Part shown: positions 11,337 to 49,559 of the stretch, in pieces
Position numbering within the stretch: the stretch's first letter is position 1
Layout: the number at the start of each line of letters is the position of its first letter
Origin: a virus
Lineage: Duplodnaviria; Caudoviricetes
DNA: 52,335 bases
Strand: one strand, 5' to 3'
Virus record (IMG/VR): IMGVR_UViG_3300036851_000202
Location: 1 to 52,335 of that record
Notes under the pieces: generated by a model
The model's database searches: none
Seen by the model: only the letters and a program-made list of their open reading frames with translations
Told to the model about the DNA's origin: nothing
Made by a program: the position numbers and the translations under genes

Positions 11337-12446
11337 TTGCCGAGAAAACGTATGGATGCGAATCGAGAGAATGCGAATCAAGGGCCGTTTTCGGGGCGCG
11401 CTTCGGGGCGCTTGCGAGTGCTGATTCGCAGCAAGGGGCCGGGCCAGCCGTTCCATTTGTACTACGTCGATCCTGCCACTGGGAAGGAACGAACGAAGCG
11501 AACAGCCGCCATGACGCGCGACGACGCGCAGCGCGCGGCCGGCGTCTGGGAGCAAGAGCTGGTCGCCTACCGCGGCGAGCGCGACGACGGATGGAAGCTG
11601 TTTCGTGACAAGTTCAGGGATGAGCATGTAGCCTCACTATCGGACAAGACGCGGGCTGGGTACGGCACGGCGCTGAACCATTACGAGCGGCTGATGAATC
11701 CGCACACGCTGGCGGACCTGACGCCGGCCGCCCTCTCTCAATTCCAAGCGAAGTTGGTTGCCGAGAAGCGACCAGTGACCAGCATCGGCAACTACCTGAC
11801 GCACATGCGGACGGCTCTAAACTTCGCGGCCATGATCGGCATGATCGACAAGGCCCCGCGAATCAAGATGCCGAAACAGAATCGGCGGTCGTTCATGCGC
11901 GGGCGTCCGGTGACTGCCGCCGAGTACCGCCGGATGCTCCAAGCCGCGCCGCCAGATCTCCGCCGGCTAATGGAACTGCTTTGGCTTTCCGGCCTGCGCC
12001 TTAGCGAGGGACTGAAGATCTCCTGGGACTCACCGCCGATCGTGGCGAAGCTGGACGCCAAGCCCTACCCGCTGCTGATGTACTTCGCGGAAGGCCACAA
12101 GGCACGCCGGGACGACGCCGTACCGATGACGCCAGACCTCGCGGCTTGGTTGCGTAGGACGCCCGCCAAGGCCCGCGTGGGGTTCGTGGCCCCTGTGTCG
12201 CTAGAAACCCAGCCCCGCGTCTCTGAGGCTATCTCCGAAATCGGACGGGCCGCTGGCGTGGTTGTGAGCGATGACGGCAAGGCGGCATCGGCCCATGATC
12301 TGCGCCGGGCGTTCGGCACGCGATGGGCCCACAAGGTGATGCCGGCAGTCCTCCGCGTCTTGATGCGACACGGGGACATTCAGACCACGCTTAAATACTA
12401 CGTCGGAATCACCGCGACCGATGCCGGCGACGCGCTTTGGAAGTGA
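11337..12446 (+). CDS. int: tyrosine recombinase (integrase)
   Basis: Catalytic residues: SGLRLSE, HKA, HDLRR, MRHGDIQTTLKYY. The start may be the ATG at 11352. Confidence 0.95.
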   Translation: MPRKRMDANRENANQGPFSGRASGRLRVLIRSKGPGQPFHLYYVDPATGKERTKRTAAMTRDDAQRAAGVWEQELVAYRGERDDGWKLFRDKFRDEHVASLSDKTRAGYGTALNHYERLMNPHTLADLTPAALSQFQAKLVAEKRPVTSIGNYLTHMRTALNFAAMIGMIDKAPRIKMPKQNRRSFMRGRPVTAAEYRRMLQAAPPDLRRLMELLWLSGLRLSEGLKISWDSPPIVAKLDAKPYPLLMYFAEGHKARRDDAVPMTPDLAAWLRRTPAKARVGFVAPVSLETQPRVSEAISEIGRAAGVVVSDDGKAASAHDLRRAFGTRWAHKVMPAVLRVLMRHGDIQTTLKYYVGITATDAGDALWK

Positions 12447-24844: not shown

Positions 24845-27034
24845 TTACGATGAGCCGCCGTCCGCATGGACGCCGCCACGGTACTCTTGGAAGTTCACGC
24901 CAACGTCCGAGTAGCCGCGCATCTGAACGCCAAGCACGTTGAATTCGGCGTCGGCCGTTTCGACGGTCGGCATCACGTTGCCGTTGAGGGCGGCGATCGC
25001 GATGACCGGCAGGACGTTCGGATCGGCCAGCAGCCACCAGGCAGTCGAGGTATTGCCCGTGTACGTGGAATTGCTGATGTACGGCGAGCTTTCCAGGCGG
25101 AACCGCCCGCGGAACACGTTGATGTTGGACATGCCGGCCGAAGCGCCGGAAACGATGACCGATTGCGGGTCCAGCAAGGCGCTGGCCGTCGCCTTGAGCG
25201 CCGACGGGACAAGGACAATCGCCGCCTCCATCCCCAGAGGAGTGCCGTCAGGGTTGGTCTGGTTGAGGAAAATCGTCTCGGTTGCAGCCAATCCGGCGAG
25301 CGTCATATCCGCAACGCCGGTATTGATGTTGCTATTGCCGGACGCGAAGAACGACGTCGAGACACCGGACAGGAATTCTGTCCAGAAGATGTGATTTAAG
25401 AGCTTCATCGCACCGTTTCCGAGCTTCATCGGAACGTCGGTCAGGGCTCCGGTGTCATCGTTGATGATGTCCTGCCGCGTAATGGCCAGCATCTTCGCGT
25501 AGGTATCGGCCTTGTTGGTGTAGCTCAGCTCGCCGAGCGTGCCGTGCTTGATTTCGCCGTCGCCGGCAACCTGCTCATACCGCACGGAATCCGTCAGGCT
25601 GACGGTGGTAGCGGTCTTGAAGTCGCGGACGTTCTGAATCTTCGCGATCCGCAGCGGCGTCTGATCTACGGCATTCCAGCCGCGGAATACGAACTTGTTG
25701 GCGACGTTGGAAACGATGTCGGAAATGTCGATCGTGCTGAAGCCCGCAGCGTGGATGTGCTGCCGCGGGGCAGTCATGCGGAAGGCCGCCCGCTGAACCT
25801 CCAGCGTCACGTCCATGTTTCCGTCGTTGAAGCCGTTGGCCTGGGCGCAGAGCAAGAAGAGCTGCTTGAGCCCGATTCGCCCGCGGAACCGCTTGTGCGC
25901 GGCATCCAGCACCTTCTCGTCAAACTGCTTCTCGATATCGGGCAGGTTGCCGGCCTGGCAGAGTGCCGCCTCCAGCACGTCGTTGGTGAGCTGCCCGTCG
26001 CGCTTCGAGGAGAACACGCCGACGCCCGGCGCCATCGTCGTAGCTTCGAGCAATTCCAGACGGAACTTGTCAACGCCCCATTTGCCGTCGATGCCCTGCT
26101 GGGCCAGTTCCTTGATGGCCTTGATTTCATACGGCCGCTTGTCGCAGGCGTTGAGGGCAATATCGGTGATCGCGTCAATGCGGTCGGTTTCGGCCTGCTT
26201 GGCATCAATGCCCTCGTCGAGCTTGACCCGCTTTTTCGGCGGAGTCACCAACTGACTCGTCGTGAAGTTGGCTTCGATCTTCTCTTGCTGCTCGGTCGTG
26301 GCGTTTTCCACGTCGATCCCCATGCTTTCGGCCCATGCTTTGACTTCGGCTTTCATAACTGTCTCCTTGGTAGAAGCGGCCGAAGCCGCGATGGTGACTT
26401 GGGTATCGTCGTCAGCGCCGTGAGAAACGAATGCAAGCCCCTTGAGCGTGCCGACGCGGGTCACGTACATGGGGCCGTCAAAGGTCTGGCCGTTGGCCTC
26501 GACCGTCTTGCCGGCCTTGACCTCCTGAACCTTCTCGGGATTGACTTCAAGACTCGATTGCCACACGTAGCCGTCGCGGGCGCTGTCCACCACTTCATCG
26601 CGGGCGGCGGTAGCGGCGGAGGCGGTTCCGTTGGCGACGAGAGATTTGCCGTCGTTTGCTACGGCGAAATTGCCGACACGCTTGGTGCGGTCGTGGTCGA
26701 GATTGGCGACAAGCACTTTGCTGGGCTTCAGGCCCGCAAGATCGATGACCACTGGCAAATCCCAGCCTTCGATGTCGAGTTTGCCGCCCGTGTAGAATGT
26801 GCTGGTGAACTTGGCCGGACCTTTGCTGGCGCCTTCGCCTTCCGCCGCGCTGATTGTCACGGGTGCGGAGAGGGCGATGATCGCTGGTCGTTTGCCTTTC
26901 GCCATGGCTTGCTCCTTCAATTTGGCCTGACACATGACGACGGCTTGCCCTTGGTCGTGACCTTCGTCCATGACCATCGGCACACAGCGCCGCATGTAGT
27001 CCTCGCGCGATTCGCCGGGCTTAGGAGTGGGCAT
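24845..27034 (-). CDS. prohead protease/scaffold fused to major capsid protein
   Basis: 729 aa; N-terminal LDHD...VG...WQSSL protease-like region; C-terminal V.DFK...GEIKHG.L.E..Y...ADTYAKMLAITRQDIINDD.GA capsid (Mu gpT-like) motifs. Confidence 0.85.
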   Translation of the reverse strand: MPTPKPGESREDYMRRCVPMVMDEGHDQGQAVVMCQAKLKEQAMAKGKRPAIIALSAPVTISAAEGEGASKGPAKFTSTFYTGGKLDIEGWDLPVVIDLAGLKPSKVLVANLDHDRTKRVGNFAVANDGKSLVANGTASAATAARDEVVDSARDGYVWQSSLEVNPEKVQEVKAGKTVEANGQTFDGPMYVTRVGTLKGLAFVSHGADDDTQVTIAASAASTKETVMKAEVKAWAESMGIDVENATTEQQEKIEANFTTSQLVTPPKKRVKLDEGIDAKQAETDRIDAITDIALNACDKRPYEIKAIKELAQQGIDGKWGVDKFRLELLEATTMAPGVGVFSSKRDGQLTNDVLEAALCQAGNLPDIEKQFDEKVLDAAHKRFRGRIGLKQLFLLCAQANGFNDGNMDVTLEVQRAAFRMTAPRQHIHAAGFSTIDISDIVSNVANKFVFRGWNAVDQTPLRIAKIQNVRDFKTATTVSLTDSVRYEQVAGDGEIKHGTLGELSYTNKADTYAKMLAITRQDIINDDTGALTDVPMKLGNGAMKLLNHIFWTEFLSGVSTSFFASGNSNINTGVADMTLAGLAATETIFLNQTNPDGTPLGMEAAIVLVPSALKATASALLDPQSVIVSGASAGMSNINVFRGRFRLESSPYISNSTYTGNTSTAWWLLADPNVLPVIAIAALNGNVMPTVETADAEFNVLGVQMRGYSDVGVNFQEYRGGVHADGGSS

Positions 27035-42323: not shown

Positions 42324-42863
42324 TTATGCAACGTGCTTCCAGGTTTTGCCTTGCGTAATTTCCCAGACGTATCGTGGCAGCATTTTTGGGTATTTCCTTG
42401 CGATGTCACATGGACGCATGCCGGATGCGTGCAGCCGGCGAATCTCCCTCACGTCGCTTTCCGTAAGTTTCGCCATCCATTGCCTTTCGCCCCTTGGCTG
42501 AGTTCCGTGCTTGGTCCTGTCATCGCAGTTTTCGATATGTGTTCCCCACGCTACGTTTGTCGCTCGGTTGTTGGCCTTGTTTCCGTCCAGATGCCTGCAT
42601 TCCATTCCGTCCGGTCGCGGCCCAACAAATGCTTCCAAAACTACGTGGTGAATCTTTCTTCTGAACTGACCTGACTCATTGCATAGGGTGACATCGCGGT
42701 ACTCTCCACTTGCACACCCGACTAACCGTTTCCATTTGCAGAACGTGATCCCATTCGGTCCTCCGTGGCGACAACTCCAAACCGTTCCGTCGTCGCCAAC
42801 GGCATATCCCTGAAAACCAACTACCTCCCTAAACTCGACTCCGGGTACATTTGGAATATCCAC
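42324..42863 (-). CDS. NUMOD4-HNH endonuclease with C-terminal HTH
   Basis: GYAVGDDGTVWS...IHHVVLEAFVGPRP..MECRHLDGNKANN...KLTESDVREIR. Confidence 0.9.
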   Translation of the reverse strand: MDIPNVPGVEFREVVGFQGYAVGDDGTVWSCRHGGPNGITFCKWKRLVGCASGEYRDVTLCNESGQFRRKIHHVVLEAFVGPRPDGMECRHLDGNKANNRATNVAWGTHIENCDDRTKHGTQPRGERQWMAKLTESDVREIRRLHASGMRPCDIARKYPKMLPRYVWEITQGKTWKHVA

Positions 42864-44618: not shown

Positions 44619-44876
44619 TCAACTCCCGAACCAACTCCGCACGATCAACGCCACGCTTCCCACAAGCATCAAGGCGAGACTGCCGAAGATGACGAACGCT
44701 TCGTAGTCGATGTTCGCGGCGTAGGTTAGGAAGCGTTTCCAGAGGCTCAGCTTGAGTCCCTTCCGGTCCGCCGGTTCGGTCCACAGGCTGTCTTTCGGCG
44801 GCGGCAATGTGCAGTCGGCCAGCACGCTGCCGCTGTCAATCTCACCCTCCGGCACTGTCCAGATTTGATCGTTCAT
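44619..44876 (-). CDS. small membrane protein
   Basis: C-terminal TM segment; ATGA overlap with the protease gene. Confidence 0.5.
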   Translation of the reverse strand: MNDQIWTVPEGEIDSGSVLADCTLPPPKDSLWTEPADRKGLKLSLWKRFLTYAANIDYEAFVIFGSLALMLVGSVALIVRSWFGS

Positions 44877-45610
44877 TGCCACACCTTGCTCCCGCTCAGA
44901 GTGACCTTCTTGCCGCCAAGCTCTGCGGAAATCTCGCACGTAAAGCGGTCGCCCTTGGGCAGCGCTTTCATCGTGCAGACCAGCATTTCGCCTGGCGGCG
45001 GCTCTGGTGACGGTGCCAGCTCCGCCGGTCCGAACATCTTCATGGCGATACTCGCCTCATCCGCTTGAGGCTCCCAAATTTGTGGGTTGTACCGCTTGTT
45101 CATCAGGTCAGGAGTACCGTCATCGTCCAAGTGCGGGAAGCCAATGATATGGCCCCACTCATGCGCGCCGACGTGGGCCAACCCGATCGTGTTCCTCTCC
45201 GGCACGCCGAAGACCTCCACGAACTGCTCCATGTCCAGCCGCATCCGTTGCTGCTTTTGCCCTGTGTAGAGTTCGGCATCGGCAAGAATCCCGAGCGGCC
45301 CGTCGATGGTCGTGACCTTCACCAGCACATTGGCCGACGCTTTCGTAACGGCCTGCTTAGGCCGGTGCTTGCATACCTTGGACCACGCGGAGAACGCCGA
45401 TTGCAGCACAGATTCCGTCTTGCCGTCTGACCAACCGGCAATCCTCCCTTCCAGCCACCACGTCCAATCAGGAGACGGAATGGGGTAGAGCTTGCCGTCT
45501 AGGCGAAATTCTTCTTTGACTCCGCAGTAGTGGATTTCCTCTGCGAAGTCACCGGTTGCGCGAGCGATTTGCGGAACAGACCGCCTCGGCTTGCTGGATT
45601 TTTTTGCCAC
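44873..45610 (-). CDS. matrixin-like (M10, metzincin) zinc metalloprotease
   Basis: AFSAWSKV...DGPLGILADA...AHEWGHIIGFPH...LMNKRY (HExxHxxGxxH plus Met-turn). Confidence 0.85.
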   Translation of the reverse strand: MAKKSSKPRRSVPQIARATGDFAEEIHYCGVKEEFRLDGKLYPIPSPDWTWWLEGRIAGWSDGKTESVLQSAFSAWSKVCKHRPKQAVTKASANVLVKVTTIDGPLGILADAELYTGQKQQRMRLDMEQFVEVFGVPERNTIGLAHVGAHEWGHIIGFPHLDDDGTPDLMNKRYNPQIWEPQADEASIAMKMFGPAELAPSPEPPPGEMLVCTMKALPKGDRFTCEISAELGGKKVTLSGSKVWQ

Positions 45611-45613
45611 GGA

Positions 45614-45961
45614 CTACCCCGCCGGAAAGAGTTTCTTCAGCAGGTCCAGGGCGCCCGTCAGGAAGCCCGCCAACTGCGGGGCCAACTTGAGCAGCGTGAA
45701 AATGCCACGCAGCCCGCTGAAGTCAATCACGGCCTGAGACGTTCCGCCTGCGGTCAGGCACTGGGCGATCTGCGATTCCGCAGCGGCCTCTTCCTCGGTC
45801 GGCGTCACGAGCTCCAGGCCGCCACTGGCCGCAGCCGGTGCGGGAATCACCTTGGCGGCGATTTGCTTGACCAGCTCCACAAGCTGCATGACCAGCGGCC
45901 ACACTTCGGCCAGCTTCGGTCCAAACGCGAGCAGGGTCTTCAACAGGTCGATGTACTTCAT
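45614..45961 (-). CDS. amphipathic/hydrophobic protein (holin-like)
   Basis: MKYIDLLKTLLAFGPKLAEVWPL...; GAGG RBS; directly upstream of the protease. Confidence 0.5.
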   Translation of the reverse strand: MKYIDLLKTLLAFGPKLAEVWPLVMQLVELVKQIAAKVIPAPAAASGGLELVTPTEEEAAAESQIAQCLTAGGTSQAVIDFSGLRGIFTLLKLAPQLAGFLTGALDLLKKLFPAG

Positions 45962-46120
45962 TTGCACTTCCTCACTTGAAAACAGGATTGGTTCAGTTAA
46001 CGGGTTGACATACACTTCCCCGCCGTACATCTCGGCGTAGGACTCGGCGAGTGCTTGCGATCGTGCGGGGATCTTGTCGGGGCTGCCTTTGCGGGTGTAG
46101 TAGTAGGTCGTCACTGTAAA

Positions 46121-46212
46121 AACTTCTGGATGGAATCGAACCACCGACAAGTCCTGTCGCTACCAGGACACCACGGGAGCGACCCGCTGCTCTGCCACTG
46201 AGCTACAGAAGC
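46121..46212 (-). ncRNA. tRNA-like RNA with two hairpins replacing the anticodon/variable arms
   Basis: Acceptor GCTTCTG/CAGAAGT; D arm GCTC-AGTGGCA-GAGC; T arm GGTGG-TTCGATT-CCATC; central hairpins GCGGG-TCGCT-CCCGT and GTCCTG-GTAGCGA-CAGGAC. Confidence 0.8.
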
Positions 46213-46217
46213 CAAAT

Positions 46218-46508
46218 TCACTTCACGTCCTCCAACACGGTCTGCGCCTTGACAATCTCCGCGGCCAGTTCCCGCCCCTGGTCGCTGCCTTCCTTCTCCA
46301 GCAGCGCGGCAATCTTCGTGGCCCGCTCGTTATCGAGCCACACGCCGGGGACAGCATCCGCGCCGATCTTCTCGGCTTTCTTCACCGCCTGGTCGTAGCG
46401 CAGGTCAACAGCGCCGACGTGCTCGCCGTGGATGATGGCGGGCGCGGCGAACGGCTCGGGGATGATTACCGTGCCGGATTCGGATGGTGGTTTGCGGCGA
46501 GACGGCAC
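46218..46508 (-). CDS. hypothetical protein
   Basis: 96-aa ORF ending 6 nt before the tRNA-like RNA. Confidence 0.5.
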   Translation of the reverse strand: MPSRRKPPSESGTVIIPEPFAAPAIIHGEHVGAVDLRYDQAVKKAEKIGADAVPGVWLDNERATKIAALLEKEGSDQGRELAAEIVKAQTVLEDVK

Positions 46509-46614
46509 GGCGAAACCGTTATGGTTTCACCCTGCCGGGCAGGATGCCGCGTCAGAGTGCGAATCGTTTAACCGGCGGCCAAGATGGCGCACCGGAGCAA
46601 TTGCTAGGGGAATC

Positions 46615-46881
46615 CTAAACCTTGACGGGGGTTGATGTCAACGCGAAGCCGTGCCAGTACCGCAGTTTCTCGTTCAGCGTCAGTTTGGAATCCTCGTCCA
46701 ATTGGTCCGTTGCGAATGTCACGCAGATACTTCCGCTGGTCACGTCAATAGCGATGTCCTTGACTTCAGTACCGCCGTCCGTGAATGCGCTAATTTCATC
46801 ATCCGAGACAACCGAATCCCACAGGCTGTCGCCGACGCGAGGCACGATGGGAAGCCGAACGTTGCGGCTGGCGTAAGCCAT
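46615..46881 (-). CDS. hypothetical protein
   Basis: 88 aa; LPIVPRVGD motif; may start further upstream. Confidence 0.5.
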   Translation of the reverse strand: MAYASRNVRLPIVPRVGDSLWDSVVSDDEISAFTDGGTEVKDIAIDVTSGSICVTFATDQLDEDSKLTLNEKLRYWHGFALTSTPVKV

Positions 46882-46935
46882 GCCGTCCGTTCCTACAAGA
46901 AAAACCGGAATGTGCTAGTTCGCAAACCCAAGCGG

Positions 46936-47121
46936 TTACGGTCGTCGCGAGCGGGCCGCGATGTCCCAGCCAGCAGTGAGCGCGACCAAGCCGCCCATGC
47001 CCGCAATGACGTAGCCGAGCACCGATTGGTAGTAGATGCCGTAGGCCACGCCAAACGCGCAAACGACTAGGTTGACGAGCAGCTCCGGCCAGGGCGGCCC
47101 GCGCCGGCGAACTTTCGTCAT
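46936..47121 (-). CDS. small two-TM membrane protein
   Basis: Two hydrophobic segments. Confidence 0.5.
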   Translation of the reverse strand: MTKVRRRGPPWPELLVNLVVCAFGVAYGIYYQSVLGYVIAGMGGLVALTAGWDIAARSRRP

Positions 47122-47124
47122 GGC

Positions 47125-47298
47125 TCACCCCTTCGCCTGATTGCCCCGGTTCGACTTCCCCTTCGCGGCCCGCTTCTTCGCCTTAGCCTTCTTGCTGGGC
47201 AGCTTCTTCGGGTCCACCTTCAGGATGCCTGAGACGAAGGCGTCGAAGGGGAGGGGGACGTGGAGGGTCTGTCCAGGTGTCCTAGTCGGTTTCTTCAT
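47125..47298 (-). CDS. 57-aa Lys-rich protein (below the ORF-track cutoff)
   Basis: Translated by hand: MKKPTRTPGQTLHVPLPFDAFVSGILKVDPKKLPSKKAKAKKRAAKGKSNRGNQAKG. Confidence 0.55.
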   Translation of the reverse strand: MKKPTRTPGQTLHVPLPFDAFVSGILKVDPKKLPSKKAKAKKRAAKGKSNRGNQAKG

Positions 47299-47398
47299 GG
47301 AATCCGGCCTTAAAGGCTGTTCAGTTATCGCCTTCCGTCAAACGGGCGATTATGGTAAAAGACTGGTCTTTTCCTCACCTGTCCCCAAGGATTCCGCC

Positions 47399-47971
47399 AT
47401 GACGCCTGAAGCGATTAAAGACCGCGCCAAGCGAATCATCGTGGAGTTGGTTCGCCAAGCCGGCGGTGTATTCTACAACAAGACCAACCTTTACAAGGCG
47501 TTCTGGCGGGCGCATCTCGCCTACGCCGAAACCAATCCCGGCTATCTATCCGCTTGGCCCATCGTGAAGATGCCGGAGGGGCCGGGGATCGACCGATTCA
47601 ACCGCCTCTGCGGCGAGATGCTGGAGGACGGTTGGCTGGACCTCCGCGAGCAGCAATCCGGTCCTCACACGGGAATGGTCTTTGACTTGGGCGAAACTCC
47701 GCCCCCCTGTGCGCTGGACAAGAACGCCGTGGCGGCAATCAGGGCTGGAGTAGCAGTAGCCGGCAAGTGGGCCGCCACCGTGAGCGATGAATCCCACCGC
47801 GATTCGCGAGCGTGGAACCAGGCGGCAATGGGCAAGGAGCTGGACGTTTACAGCGACTTGCTATCCAACGAAGAACTGGCCGAATTGGACAAGGGCCTAG
47901 AGTCGCTTGCTGCGGCGGCAGGATATGCACTATCGGATCGAACGAAAATGAGCGTCAACCCAGTGGGTTAG
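47399..47971 (+). CDS. Panacea/SocA (DUF4065)-like antitoxin domain protein
   Basis: KTNLYKAFWRAHL.Y.......LS.W...KMPEGP...SDESH....W. Confidence 0.7.
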   Translation: MTPEAIKDRAKRIIVELVRQAGGVFYNKTNLYKAFWRAHLAYAETNPGYLSAWPIVKMPEGPGIDRFNRLCGEMLEDGWLDLREQQSGPHTGMVFDLGETPPPCALDKNAVAAIRAGVAVAGKWAATVSDESHRDSRAWNQAAMGKELDVYSDLLSNEELAELDKGLESLAAAAGYALSDRTKMSVNPVG

Positions 47972-48307
47972 CTCGGTTTCGGTCTTGTACTCGATCTGCT
48001 CAAGTTCCTTCAGCGCACGCAGGTCGCCGTCGCTGAGATCCCGCCGCGCAGATCGAATTGACAGGTAGCGAACGACGCCCAGATAGAGACCTAACTGCAG
48101 CCCGGAGTACAAATACTCCGAGAAGTATCGAGTCATAAAGGCGATGGCCAGTTCCCTTGGACCGGCGCAGTGCAGCGAGTCGGTCGCCATGAATTCATCG
48201 AAGTCATGCACCACGCGAAAGCGGCGAGGATCGCCGTTCGTGCGGGTAATAGCGTGGTCGATGATCGTGCGAAACTGAATCCGAAAATCCGCCGATGGAA
48301 CGTGCAT
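47930..48307 (-). CDS. hypothetical protein
   Basis: 125 aa; directly downstream of the tRNA and convergent with the Panacea-like gene. Confidence 0.45.
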   Translation of the reverse strand: MHVPSADFRIQFRTIIDHAITRTNGDPRRFRVVHDFDEFMATDSLHCAGPRELAIAFMTRYFSEYLYSGLQLGLYLGVVRYLSIRSARRDLSDGDLRALKELEQIEYKTETELTHWVDAHFRSIR

Positions 48308-48334
48308 CTTCGCTTGTCCTCGCTACAATGTAAG

Positions 48335-48431
48335 TGCGGCGGACGGGACTCGAACCCGTATGAGGGCCTTGCTAAGGGGACCACTCGCCCGATCCCAAAT
48401 CGGGTGCGGCTACCAGTTTCGCCACCGCCGC
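48335..48431 (-). tRNA. class II (Leu-like body) tRNA with UGG (Pro) anticodon and 28-nt variable region
   Basis: GCGGCGG/CCGCCGC-A; D arm GCG-AAACTGGTAGC-CGC; CCCGA-TTTGGGA-TCGGG; ACGGG-TTCGAGT-CCCGT; CCA not encoded. Confidence 0.85.
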
Positions 48432-48680
48432 GCTTTCTCATTCACAACGTGCATCCTGTTGCACTTCTTCTTGGTGCGGGTCGCGGCGGCCTAGCCGCGG
48501 CCCCACCAACGGGCCAACTAGACGGATTGTAGGGCCTTCCACCACCCAATTCAATGGCCGTCCTGATATCTGTCGGCCGGACCACGCCGCGGATGAACTC
48601 CGGCCGGCTCTTGACCTCCCACGTGGTGCTGATAAAGTTTATCAGTGGAGTTGACATGAATCCGTGTTAGGAGAGTGACC

Positions 48681-49559
48681 ATGCCCAGAAATGATCCTGA
48701 ACTCCCGGTGGCGCAAGCTGGTAGCCGACGCAAGCGGAGTCCGATGTACCCCTCTCTCACGCTTGAGCAGGCCCTGCAACGCGCTGAAGTGCTTCACGAC
48801 AAGTGCGGCGAACACACCTCAACGCTTGAAGAGGCGGCGGTGGCTTGGGGGCAAAGCCCGACGAGCAGTGGCGTGCTACAGGCGGTTTCCGCCTTGAAAC
48901 AGTACGGATTGCTGGCGGATGAGGGAAGCCGCGAAGATCGCCTTGTCCGCCTGACCGATGCGGCCCTGGACATTCTGATCCATGAGCCTGGATCGGCAGA
49001 GAGGCGTCGGCTCATTCAAGAAGCTGCTCTCACCCCGAAATTGCACCGGGAACTATGGGACAAATTCGGAGGCTCCCTGCCACCAAACGACGGGCCGCTT
49101 CGCCTTTACCTATTGCGACAGCGTGAGGAAAGCACATTTAACCATGCCCATGTGGACAGTTTTATCAGCGATTTCCGCGAGACGATAGCCTTTGCGAAGC
49201 TGGTGCCGATGTCTATAATCGCGATGGCAGATGACAGCGAGTCCGAGAGTAGCGAGTCGAGCGGTTCCATGAGCCTATCGTCAGAGAGTTCCAGCGTCAG
49301 CAGTGTAAGTAGCGCTGGCAGTTTTAGCAGTTCCACCCGTAATTTGCCGACGAATCCTGCTGGGAAGCAGGCTGGGCAAGTATTGCGAATCCCCGTGACG
49401 CTGCCGACCCTAAAGGTAGCCTGGCTCGAAGTTCCCGAGCGGATGACTGAGGCGGAATTCAGCACGCTTCGTGATGCACTGAACCTGTTTCATGATGCCC
49501 TTGTAGTGTCGCCGCAGGTGCCCGCTGATCCGCAGCAGCCGGGGCCGGCTGCTACTTAG
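48681..49559 (+). CDS. accessory protein, probable winged-helix N-terminus
   Basis: RSPMYPSLTLEQAL...AWGQSPTSSG....SALKQYGLL...VRLT; AGGAG RBS; Ser-rich linker. Confidence 0.7.
   Translation: MPRNDPELPVAQAGSRRKRSPMYPSLTLEQALQRAEVLHDKCGEHTSTLEEAAVAWGQSPTSSGVLQAVSALKQYGLLADEGSREDRLVRLTDAALDILIHEPGSAERRRLIQEAALTPKLHRELWDKFGGSLPPNDGPLRLYLLRQREESTFNHAHVDSFISDFRETIAFAKLVPMSIIAMADDSESESSESSGSMSLSSESSSVSSVSSAGSFSSSTRNLPTNPAGKQAGQVLRIPVTLPTLKVAWLEVPERMTEAEFSTLRDALNLFHDALVVSPQVPADPQQPGPAAT

What the first reader, a model, noticed from the sequence alone, without database searches (positions are those of the whole stretch)
48335..48431. Leu-identity tRNA body carrying a Pro (UGG) anticodon
Seen: anticodon loop UU-UGG-GA, but G1:C72, A73, a 3-bp D stem, A15 with U48 and a 28-nt variable arm (GAG/CUC, GG/CC, CCUU/AAGG). 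Established: bacterial tRNA-Pro is class I with C1:G72, whereas A73, A15:U48 and a long variable arm are tRNA-Leu features, and LeuRS largely ignores the anticodon. Inference: it may insert Leu at CCA/CCG codons (missense decoding or relief of proline stalling), or act as a decoy.
Basis: partly seen in the sequence, partly recalled or inferred. Interest (0 to 1): 0.8.

Follow-up and report, generated by a model that had tools for sequence, protein, structure and literature searches.

The report
Leucine-shaped phage tRNA reading proline codons
A soil phage carries a real transfer RNA built like a leucine tRNA but bearing a proline anticodon; it belongs to a family that travels on phages and jumping genes, and it may either mis-insert leucine at proline codons or be a new shape of proline tRNA.

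Summary
Window 48335-48431 (minus strand) is a tRNA by Rfam (51.8 bits). It has a 7/5 cloverleaf, G1:C72, A73, a 3-bp D stem, a leucine-type D loop, anticodon loop UU-UGG-GA and a 28-nt variable region. The anticodon is not an assembly error. An independent re-assembly of the probable source run agrees. Contigs from two other soil studies carry the identical tRNA, and in one of them the flanks differ.

The window is a whole temperate tailed-phage record. The tRNA is not unique. One metagenome scan gave 53 further distinct leucine-bodied UGG tRNAs and a virus scan gave six more. About half share a bipartite 27-33-nt variable arm. An IS1595-family transposase lies just 3' of the tRNA in 32 of 67 metagenome loci and in 4 of 6 viral UGG loci, against 0 of 74 other viral loci.

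CCA/CCG codons in the phage and in those transposases stand at conserved proline positions and never at leucine positions. The code is therefore not reassigned.

Which amino acid is attached cannot be settled in silico. The E. coli leucine identity set is complete. The proline anticodon determinants and A73 are present, but G72 and G15:C48 are absent. I rate ambiguous or proline-leaning charging slightly above pure leucine mistranslation. I found no description of this family in print.

The parts
48335..48431 (-). tRNA gene: class II, leucine-type body, anticodon UGG, A73, no encoded CCA
   Evidence: Rfam RF00005, 51.8 bits, full-length match. Sequence read. Identical in contigs of two other studies.
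48395..48397 (-). anticodon U34 G35 G36 (CCA on the plus strand), inside loop UUUGGGA (48393-48399)
   Evidence: Infernal alignment. The loop is identical, 7 of 7, to that of a canonical 77-nt tRNA-Pro(UGG) in locus L057.
48360..48387 (-). 28-nt variable region: an outer stem (GAG..GG / CC..CUC) and an inner hairpin (CCUU-AGC-AAGG); the alternative pairing GGUC/GGCC is also possible
   Evidence: Sequence and MFE fold. The outer stem is supported by covariation in 25 long-arm family members.
48409..48422 (-). leucine-type D arm: 3-bp stem plus loop AACUGGUAG (A14, A15, G18G19, A20a)
   Evidence: Genuine tRNA-Leu(UAG) and tRNA-Leu(CAG) on metagenome loci L039 and L047 have the same architecture.
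48526..48554 (-). promoter-like site TTGAAT-17-TACAAT, about 95 nt upstream of the tRNA 5' end
   Evidence: Consensus scan: 4 sites in 45900-48800 against 0.9 expected. This is a consensus match only, not evidence of function.
47930..48307 (-). 125-aa ORF, 27 nt downstream of the tRNA on the same strand, with no known family
   Evidence: ORF list. No hit in Pfam, PHROGs or the Atlas. No relative in virus contigs.
46121..46212 (-). second irregular tRNA: class-I-type 4-bp D stem, long hairpin in the variable region, G1.U72, U73, and an abnormal anticodon loop (5-nt UCGCU, or 7-nt GUCGCUC with G32 and U37)
   Evidence: Rfam, 43.8 bits. ARAGORN calls it 'tRNA-Ala cgc'. Fold.

Best explanation
This is a genuine, selectively maintained tRNA gene of a temperate tailed soil phage. 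It is a class II tRNA descended from a CUN-type tRNA-Leu whose anticodon has shifted to UGG.

It belongs to a mobile family of at least 59 other distinct sequences in metagenome and virus contigs. Many members carry the same bipartite 27-33-nt variable arm. Many sit directly upstream of an IS1595-family transposase.

I think it most likely works in translation as a decoder of CCA/CCG. The genes that travel with it use these codons for proline. I therefore take the selected role to be proline-leaning or ambiguous charging. In that reading, ProRS would recognise G35, G36, G37 and A73. LeuRS could still recognise A73 plus the leucine-type elbow, giving some Pro-to-Leu error. In short, it looks like a leucine-shaped tRNA in the course of an identity switch.

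Shown: the gene, its conservation, the family, the link to the transposase, and the meaning of CCR codons in the carriers. Inferred: that it is expressed, that it is charged, and with which amino acid.
For: Real and conserved:
- Rfam 51.8 bits.
- The tRNA is identical in contigs of two other studies, and in one of them (X2) the flanks differ at 9 of 191 bases.

Family:
- One metagenome scan gave 67 loci and 53 further distinct sequences.
- Features the pattern did not require are still conserved among the 54 sequences (window included): A73 in 53, U48 in 51, a fully paired acceptor stem in 50.
- Among 25 long-arm members, 98.1% of cells pair (81.0% when shuffled, about 40% when slid). 17 of 25 pairs show compensatory changes, and 0 of 500 shuffles reach that.

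CCR means proline in the carriers:
- Phage structural genes: CCA 7 of 18 positions majority-Pro, 0 majority-Leu, 11 variable. CCG 50 of 85 majority-Pro, 0 majority-Leu.
- 22 distinct transposases: CCA 39 of 43 majority-Pro, 0 Leu. CCG 34 of 46 majority-Pro, 0 Leu.
- CCA plus CCG make up 68% of 729 phage proline codons.

Proline-ward signs:
- G35, G36, G37 and A73 are present (listed as bacterial Pro determinants in PMC9976931).
- The anticodon loop is identical to that of a canonical tRNA-Pro(UGG).
- C1:G72 occurs in 5 of 54 members, spread over five separate sequence clusters.
- In virus contigs, leucine-type scaffolds with Gln, Asn, Ser or His anticodons carry G73 (with U1:A72 for Gln), G73, G73 and C73. 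So the scaffold itself need not mean leucine.
- The extra-long arm is tied to UGG. None of 11 viral loci with A35 and long spacing is a proper cloverleaf, whereas two viral UGG members and the window have the long arm.
Against: - Every element listed as essential for E. coli LeuRS is present, and LeuRS does not read the anticodon (PMC9976931). By E. coli rules, leucine should win.
- The window tRNA lacks G72, G15:C48 and G49, which are bacterial ProRS elements.
- From general knowledge, not tested here: class II synthetases such as ProRS approach from the variable-arm side, so a 28-nt arm could hinder them.
- Most family members keep G1:C72 (44 of 54).
- 5 of 6 viral UGG members have A37, not the G37 expected of either Pro or CUN-Leu tRNAs.
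- There is no evidence of expression or charging of any kind.
- The host and its type of ProRS are unknown.
- The family was collected with patterns that required the leucine-type D arm and UGG. Conservation of those features within the family is therefore not evidence.
Confidence: 0.4

Rival explanations
1. Leucine-dominant missense tRNA. LeuRS charges it as an ordinary tRNA-Leu, and it inserts leucine at CCA/CCG in competition with the host's tRNA-Pro. That would be programmed or tolerated Pro-to-Leu mistranslation, carried by phages and IS elements.
For: - The E. coli Leu identity set is complete: A73, A15:U48, G18G19, A20a and a 3-bp D stem.
- C2:G71 and A73 exclude SerRS by E. coli rules.
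- The bacterial ProRS elements G72 and G15:C48 are absent.
- Genuine tRNA-Leu on metagenome loci share the same architecture.
- Natural mistranslating tRNAs exist in bacteria: tRNAProX (PMC10404621, listing and start of abstract only).
- Irregular, possibly missense-suppressor tRNAs near toxin-antitoxin and transposon genes are reported from soil Acidobacteria (PMC5389517, passages).
Against: - It would hit 68% of the phage's own proline codons.
- It would hit conserved prolines of the phage's structural proteins and of the adjacent transposases, where leucine is never the majority residue.
- Family members are intact and widespread rather than decaying.
- C1:G72 in 5 of 54 members is unexplained under pure leucine identity.
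Confidence: 0.3
2. A tRNA-shaped RNA with a role outside decoding. It could be a processing or expression signal for the gene downstream, a preferred insertion target or component of IS1595-type elements, or a decoy or competitor for an enzyme that recognises the tRNA-Pro anticodon loop.
For: - There is a tight and specific link to an IS1595-family transposase just 3' of the tRNA: 32 of 67 metagenome loci, 4 of 6 viral UGG loci and 0 of 74 other viral loci.
- One pair of loci shares a 1,223-bp block (tRNA plus transposase) inside unrelated flanks.
- In the window, an ORF starts 27 nt downstream on the same strand.
- A second tRNA 2.1 kb away has an anticodon loop unfit for decoding.
- Mukai et al. 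found irregular tRNAs that were charged but not used in translation (PMC5389517).
Against: - The whole cloverleaf, a standard 7-nt anticodon loop with U33 and a purine at position 37, and A73 are all kept. This is more than a processing signal needs.
- The window phage has no IS1595 transposase.
- tRNA and transposase occur in both relative orientations, so a fixed co-transcript is unlikely.
Confidence: 0.2
3. A decaying tRNA-Leu(UAG) copy with a chance A35-to-G mutation and no function, or a sequencing artefact.
For: - One base separates UAG from UGG.
- Some short-arm singletons in the metagenome set look like this: L039 and L088 have only 5 of 7 acceptor pairs, and L057 sits in an ordinary tRNA cluster.
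Against: - The tRNA is identical in three studies, with flanks that differ in one of them (X2).
- All four stems are perfectly paired.
- It belongs to a covarying family with a derived variable arm.
Confidence: 0.05

Closest known systems
Bacterial tRNA-Leu, CUN isoacceptors (class II)
   Same: 3-bp D stem, D loop AAYUGGYAG, A15:U48, A20a, G37, A73, G1:C72, C2:G71 and a 7/5 acceptor/T arrangement. Genuine tRNA-Leu(UAG) and tRNA-Leu(CAG) on loci L039 and L047 look the same.
   Different: The anticodon is UGG, not NAG or YAA. The variable region is 28 nt with two helices, against 10-19 nt in the short-arm members. No Leu-anticodon tRNA with so long an arm was found in virus contigs.
Canonical bacterial tRNA-Pro(UGG)
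   Same: The anticodon loop UUUGGGA is identical to that of the 77-nt tRNA-Pro of locus L057. A73 is shared.
   Different: Canonical tRNA-Pro is class I: C1:G72, a 4-bp D stem, G15:C48 and a 5-nt variable loop. The window tRNA has none of these.
allo-tRNAs and 'irregular tRNAs' of soil Acidobacteria (Mukai et al. 2017, PMC5389517; abstract and passages read)
   Same: Long-armed tRNAs from soil and peat whose anticodons do not fit their body. They are found near transposon-related and toxin-antitoxin genes and were proposed as missense suppressors or non-coding RNAs.
   Different: allo-tRNAs have 8/4 or 9/3 acceptor/T stems and serine identity. The window tRNA is 7/5 with A73 and C2:G71. UGG and proline are not mentioned in the main text of that paper (0 occurrences). 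Its supplementary figures could not be seen.
tRNAProX / ProRSx of Streptomyces and relatives (PMC10404621; search listing and start of abstract; details recalled)
   Same: Natural bacterial tRNAs whose identity elements and anticodon disagree, so that a sense codon is mistranslated.
   Different: There, a proline body carries non-proline anticodons and has a dedicated synthetase. Here, a leucine body carries a proline anticodon, and no synthetase gene is nearby.
Candida tRNA-Ser(CAG), charged by both SerRS and LeuRS (PMC11415595, passages read)
   Same: A class II tRNA with an anticodon of another amino acid, recognised by two synthetases, which gives ambiguous decoding.
   Different: It is eukaryotic, chromosomal and part of a codon reassignment. 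Here CCR remains proline in the carriers.

Membership tests
tRNA (Rfam RF00005) | Cloverleaf that scores above the curated threshold | tested here: met
   51.8 bits against a threshold of 29, with the full model matched.
Bacterial tRNA-Leu (E. coli identity rules) | Discriminator A73 | tested here: met
   A73 in the window and in 53 of 54 family sequences. Rule taken from PMC9976931.
Bacterial tRNA-Leu (E. coli identity rules) | Elbow elements A15:U48, G18G19 and A20a, with a class II body | tested here: met
   D loop AACUGGUAG, and U as the last base of the variable region. Rule.
Bacterial tRNA-Leu | A leucine anticodon (NAG or YAA, i.e. A35) | tested here: not met
   The anticodon is UGG, confirmed in contigs of three runs.
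Bacterial tRNA-Leu | Charged with leucine by LeuRS | not testable with these tools
   Needs an aminoacylation assay.
Bacterial tRNA-Pro | Anticodon-branch determinants G35, G36 and G37 | tested here: met
   Loop UUUGGGA. Rule from PMC9976931.
Bacterial tRNA-Pro | Acceptor determinants A73 and G72 (C1:G72) | tested here: not met
   A73 is present but position 72 is C (G1:C72). 5 of 54 family members do have C1:G72.
Bacterial tRNA-Pro | Class I core with G15:C48 and G49 | tested here: not met
   A15:U48, A49 and a 28-nt variable region.
tRNA-Ser / allo-tRNA | G73, G2:C71 and a long variable arm; for allo-tRNA, an 8/4 or 9/3 acceptor/T arrangement | tested here: not met
   The long arm is present. 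But the tRNA has A73, C2:G71 (an E. coli antideterminant for SerRS) and a 7/5 arrangement.
Leucine-bodied UGG tRNA family defined here | Leu-type D arm, UGG, A73, 7/5 cloverleaf; in about half of the members, a 27-33-nt bipartite variable arm | tested here: met
   The window tRNA matches the search pattern. It aligns with 24 long-arm members. Its nearest member, L085, is 87% identical outside the variable region.
IS1595-linked tRNA module | IS1595-family transposase within a few hundred bases 3' of the tRNA | tested here: not met
   PF12762 has no match anywhere in the window, and there is no blastx hit to the family's transposases.

The most novel reading that the evidence does not exclude
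Phages and IS1595-type insertion sequences spread a leucine-accepting tRNA that reads proline codons. This would be a mobile device for programmed Pro-to-Leu mistranslation. Its derived two-helix variable arm would serve as a handle for a partner or a switch that controls when it is used.
Probability: 0.25. Interest if true: 0.9.

Novelty: new variant of a known kind. Interest (0 to 1): 0.7.

Why it matters
Natural tRNAs whose body and anticodon disagree are rare. They are the raw material both of genetic-code change and of regulated mistranslation.

This one is not a lone oddity. It belongs to a covarying family found in many soil and peat metagenomes, on phages and beside one family of transposases.

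If it is charged with proline, it would be the first class II proline tRNA that I know of (from my own knowledge). It would then be an identity switch caught midway, with independent C1:G72 acquisitions.

If it is charged with leucine, mobile elements would be distributing a missense tRNA against one of the most structure-critical amino acids.

Either way, simple charging and reporter assays can decide. The long variable arm is also a ready-made natural scaffold for tRNA engineering.

Tried and rejected
tRNA detection:
- ARAGORN does not find the tRNA.
- ARAGORN's 'tRNA-Leu gag' at 24953-25039 lies inside the capsid gene and has no Rfam match, so I treat it as false.

Searches for relatives that found nothing useful:
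- The exact D-arm-to-anticodon-stem pattern found nothing in virus contigs.
- A first degenerate pattern also found nothing there. It was too narrow: it required UGGUAG, G37 and GGUUCGA.
- Flanking ORFs have no relatives in virus contigs.
- blastn of the tRNA found nothing in INPHARED phages. In E. coli genomes and plasmids it gave only 26-41-base partial matches.
- Capsid relatives (L001-L021) are short fragments without such tRNAs. The three that come from MAGs carry conflicting taxon labels, so no host could be named.
- The 30-letter loose end of a second tRNA-bearing contig of run X1 was not found in metagenome contigs. That contig matches the window's D arm and anticodon arm with 2 differences. 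Its anticodon remains unknown.

Expression: no RNA holder was listed.

Neighbouring ORFs have no family in Pfam, PHROGs or the Atlas.

Transposase: it has only relatives of 42% identity or less on plasmids. The Atlas gave no firm host taxon.

Terminal inverted repeats around the tRNA-transposase block were not found.

Readings rejected:
- Codon reassignment CCR=Leu.
- Serine or allo-tRNA identity, because of A73, C2:G71 and the 7/5 arrangement.
- A phage attachment site: the tRNA is full length, and the integrase (11337-12446) is about 15 kb away across the ends. This was not tested further.

Other:
- The scan for class-I-type D arms with long spacing gave 75 loci, which I did not analyse beyond a table.
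- Supplementary files of papers were not opened.

Full report
**What the window is.** The window is a complete IMG/VR virus record of 52,335 bp with direct terminal repeats. CheckV estimates 73% completeness. PHROGs identifies an integrase (11337-12446), an Erf-like annealing protein, a portal, a fused protease/major-capsid protein and a tape-measure protein. It is therefore a temperate tailed phage. G+C is about 60% throughout. Run metadata point to soil. Its nearest capsid relatives are short fragments at 48-65% identity. The three of these that come from MAGs carry conflicting taxon labels, so the host is unknown.

**The observation.** Rfam's tRNA model matches 48335-48431 on the minus strand end to end, at 51.8 bits. 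ARAGORN misses it. It also misses most family members with a variable arm of 27 nt or more, finding 5 of the 24 distinct ones.

- G1:C72 and C2:G71
- a 3-bp D stem with an A13.C22 mismatch
- D loop AACUGGUAG
- anticodon loop UU-UGG-GA
- a 28-nt variable region ending in U48
- a 5-bp T stem
- A73, with no encoded CCA

Folding energy alone is not remarkable (z -1.55).

The anticodon is not an artefact:
- The Logan re-assembly of run X1 has no difference over 4.2 kb at depth 36.5. This run is probably the source sample, so it is not independent.
- Two contigs of a different study (X2, depth 4) differ at 9 positions, all within the 191 flanking bases. None lies in the 97 bases of the tRNA.
- A contig of a third study (X3) is identical over 139 bases.

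A promoter-like site lies about 95 nt upstream (a consensus match only). A 125-aa ORF of no known family starts 27 nt downstream on the same strand.

**It is one of a family.** One metagenome scan required a leucine-type D arm, U33-UGG-G37, a long variable region and a T loop. It returned 67 loci, which hold 53 distinct sequences besides the window's.

Features that the pattern did not require are nevertheless conserved among the 54 sequences:

| Feature | Count of 54 |
|---|---|
| A73 | 53 |
| U at position 48 | 51 |
| acceptor stem fully paired | 50 |
| anticodon stem fully paired | 48 |
| T stem fully paired | 52 |

Variable-region length is bimodal. It is 10-19 nt in 29 sequences and 27-33 nt in 25, the window (28 nt) among the latter.

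On the 25 long-arm members, the cloverleaf plus an outer variable-arm helix pairs in 98.1% of cells. The figure is 81.0% in shuffles and about 40% when partners are slid. Of the 25 pairs, 17 show compensatory changes, which no shuffle of 500 reaches. Inside the outer helix most members have a second small hairpin, often CCYUU...AAGG. The window's CCUU-AGC-AAGG fits this, by my reading; the MAFFT alignment does not resolve this part.

Twenty loci were scanned with Rfam, and their family members score 45.8-60 bits. The window's nearest relative, L085, is 87% identical outside the variable region.

These hold 43 well-formed cloverleaves, six of them with UGG (L102, L105, L142, L148, L165, L173). 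All six have A73 and G1:C72. Two have 29- and 31-nt arms. Five have A37 instead of G37.

**Link to a transposase.** In 32 of the 67 metagenome loci, an ORF of about 300-350 aa lies 3' of the tRNA, in most loci within about 450 nt (all within 3.5 kb), in either orientation. It carries the IS1595 DDE domain (PF12762, E 1e-44) and zinc ribbon (PF12760).

An unknown protein of about 180 aa lies 55-62 nt upstream, on the same strand, in 15 of the 67 loci.

In the virus set the same transposase family lies on the returned locus, 39 nt to about 1.5 kb from the tRNA, in 4 of 6 UGG loci and in 0 of the 74 other loci.

Loci L047 and L063 share one 1,223-bp block at 86% identity inside unrelated flanks. 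The block holds about 76 nt upstream of the tRNA, the tRNA itself, a spacer and the transposase. In L047 against L083 the two parts lie in opposite relative orientation.

The linkage is therefore firm. It remains open whether the tRNA is cargo of the element or its preferred target. No terminal inverted repeats were found. The window itself has no such transposase.

**What the codons say.** In 71 ORFs picked by GC3, proline is written CCG 50%, CCC 20%, CCA 18% and CCT 12%, over 729 codons. A UGG anticodon would thus address about two thirds of them.

In the phage's structural genes I looked at positions with at least three homologues:
- CCA: majority-Pro at 7 of 18 positions, majority-Leu at 0, variable at 11.
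- CCG: majority-Pro at 50 of 85 positions, majority-Leu at 0.

A cruder count gave the same result.

In 22 distinct family-linked transposases:
- CCA stands in majority-Pro columns 39 times of 43, and never in Leu columns.
- CCG stands in majority-Pro columns 34 times of 46, and never in Leu columns.

CCR therefore means proline in the genes that travel with these tRNAs. Reassignment is excluded. Efficient leucine insertion would damage the carriers themselves.

**Which synthetase?** The rules come from the identity review (PMC9976931, passages read).
- E. coli LeuRS needs A73, A15:U48, G18G19 and A20a. It ignores both the anticodon and the variable arm. All four elements are present.
- Bacterial ProRS uses G35, G36, G37 and A73, which are present. 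It also uses G72, G15:C48 and G49, which are absent in the window.
- Archaeal-type recognition is listed as A73 plus G1:C72 plus the anticodon.
- A73 and C2:G71 speak against SerRS.

By E. coli rules leucine should therefore prevail. Four observations pull the other way:
- the codon evidence above;
- C1:G72 in 5 of 54 members, which fall in five different sequence clusters;
- in virus contigs, the same leucine-type scaffold with Gln, Asn, Ser or His anticodons carries G73 (with U1:A72 for Gln), G73, G73 and C73, that is, the discriminator of the anticodon's own amino acid;
- the extra-long arm is coupled to UGG. Of 11 viral loci with A35 and long spacing, none is a proper cloverleaf with a long arm.

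Proline and leucine share A73, so a switch from Leu to Pro cannot use the discriminator. The derived arm may be the alternative route. This last point is my inference.

**Verdict.** The gene is real and conserved, and it belongs to a mobile family. I put about 0.7 on a role in decoding CCA/CCG. Within that, I rate proline-leaning or double charging (0.4) slightly above leucine-dominant mistranslation (0.3). A non-decoding role gets 0.2, and decay or artefact gets 0.05.

**Literature.** Six searches found no description of leucine-bodied UGG tRNAs or of tRNAs linked to IS1595. I also read passages of PMC7609411, PMC5389517, PMC11415595 and PMC9976931.

The closest report is Mukai et al. 2017. 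It describes allo-tRNAs and 'irregular tRNAs' from soil Acidobacteria near transposon-related and toxin-antitoxin genes. Its main text mentions neither UGG nor proline. Its supplementary figures, which list irregular tRNAs, could not be seen and might include relatives.

Subscription journals are not covered by the library. 'Not in print' therefore means only 'not found in these searches'.

Noticed in passing
window 46121-46212 (-): A second irregular tRNA (Rfam 43.8 bits) with a class-I-type D arm, a 6-bp hairpin inserted in the variable region, G1.U72 and U73. Its anticodon loop either closes to 5 nt or has G32 and U37, so it is probably not a decoder. A pattern for such tRNAs (class I D arm plus 10-30 extra bases) matched 75 virus contigs. 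In many of them the extra bases seem to lie in the anticodon arm instead.
   Followed up: partly
window 24953-25039 (+): ARAGORN's 'tRNA-Leu (gag)' lies inside the protease/major-capsid gene (24845-27034, minus strand) and has no Rfam match. It is a false positive.
   Followed up: yes
L030-L096, e.g. L047:2154-3104 (-), L034:739-1785 (-): An IS1595-family transposase (PF12762 plus PF12760) lies directly 3' of the leucine-bodied UGG tRNA in 32 of 67 metagenome loci and 4 of 6 viral UGG loci, and in none of 74 viral loci with other anticodons. Whether the tRNA is cargo or target is open.
   Followed up: partly
L080:979-1614 (-) and 14 other loci: An unknown protein of about 150-210 aa (coiled-coil N-terminus; the C-terminus looks to me like a winged helix; no Pfam match) ends 55-62 nt upstream of the tRNA on the same strand in 15 of 67 loci. 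A conserved hairpin whose loop holds TAGGAGGG lies between the two.
   Followed up: no
L111, L116, L121, L127, L130, L135, L136, L141 (virus contigs of 32-233 kb): tRNAs with a leucine-type D arm and a 13-nt variable arm, but with anticodon UUG, U1:A72, G73, A37 and U38. That is a glutamine identity set on a class II-like body. Similar cases exist with GUU (G73), GUG (C73) and Ser anticodons (G73).
   Followed up: no
L114, L139, L168: Leucine-bodied tRNAs with A73 and anticodon UUA, which would read the UAA stop codon. They are candidate ochre suppressors on virus contigs.
   Followed up: no
L106, L115, L120, L123, L128, L152, L155, L159, L169, L171, L282, L283 and others: A recurrent tRNA-like element on virus contigs (acceptor AGTCAGG/CCTGACT, normal D and T arms, A73). 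About 45 bases replace a recognisable anticodon arm.
   Followed up: no
L047:3318-3390 and L063:2575-2644; L081:1486-1557: Directly upstream of some family members lies another tRNA or tRNA-like piece. In L047 and L063 it is a T arm plus CCA with a G3.U70-like acceptor, below the Rfam threshold. In L081 it is a 72-nt tRNA with anticodon CGA, 10 nt upstream. These recall the 'polycistrons of irregular tRNAs' of Mukai et al.
   Followed up: no
run X1 record 8 (615-nt contig, depth 8.2): A different tRNA in the probable source sample matches the window's D arm and anticodon arm (48388-48425) with only 2 differences. It then continues into a shorter variable arm and a different T arm. It may be the host or ancestral tRNA-Leu. 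Its anticodon could not be read.
   Followed up: partly
window 42324-42863 (-), 44873-45610 (-): An HNH endonuclease (PF13392, E 2e-11) and a matrixin-like metallopeptidase (PF00413, E 1e-8) lie among ORFs of unknown family in the same arm of the phage as the two tRNAs.
   Followed up: no
L040:9463-9755 (-): A group II intron (RF02001, 121.6 bits; RF01998, 58 bits) lies about 6 kb from a family tRNA on a 76-kb metagenome contig.
   Followed up: no
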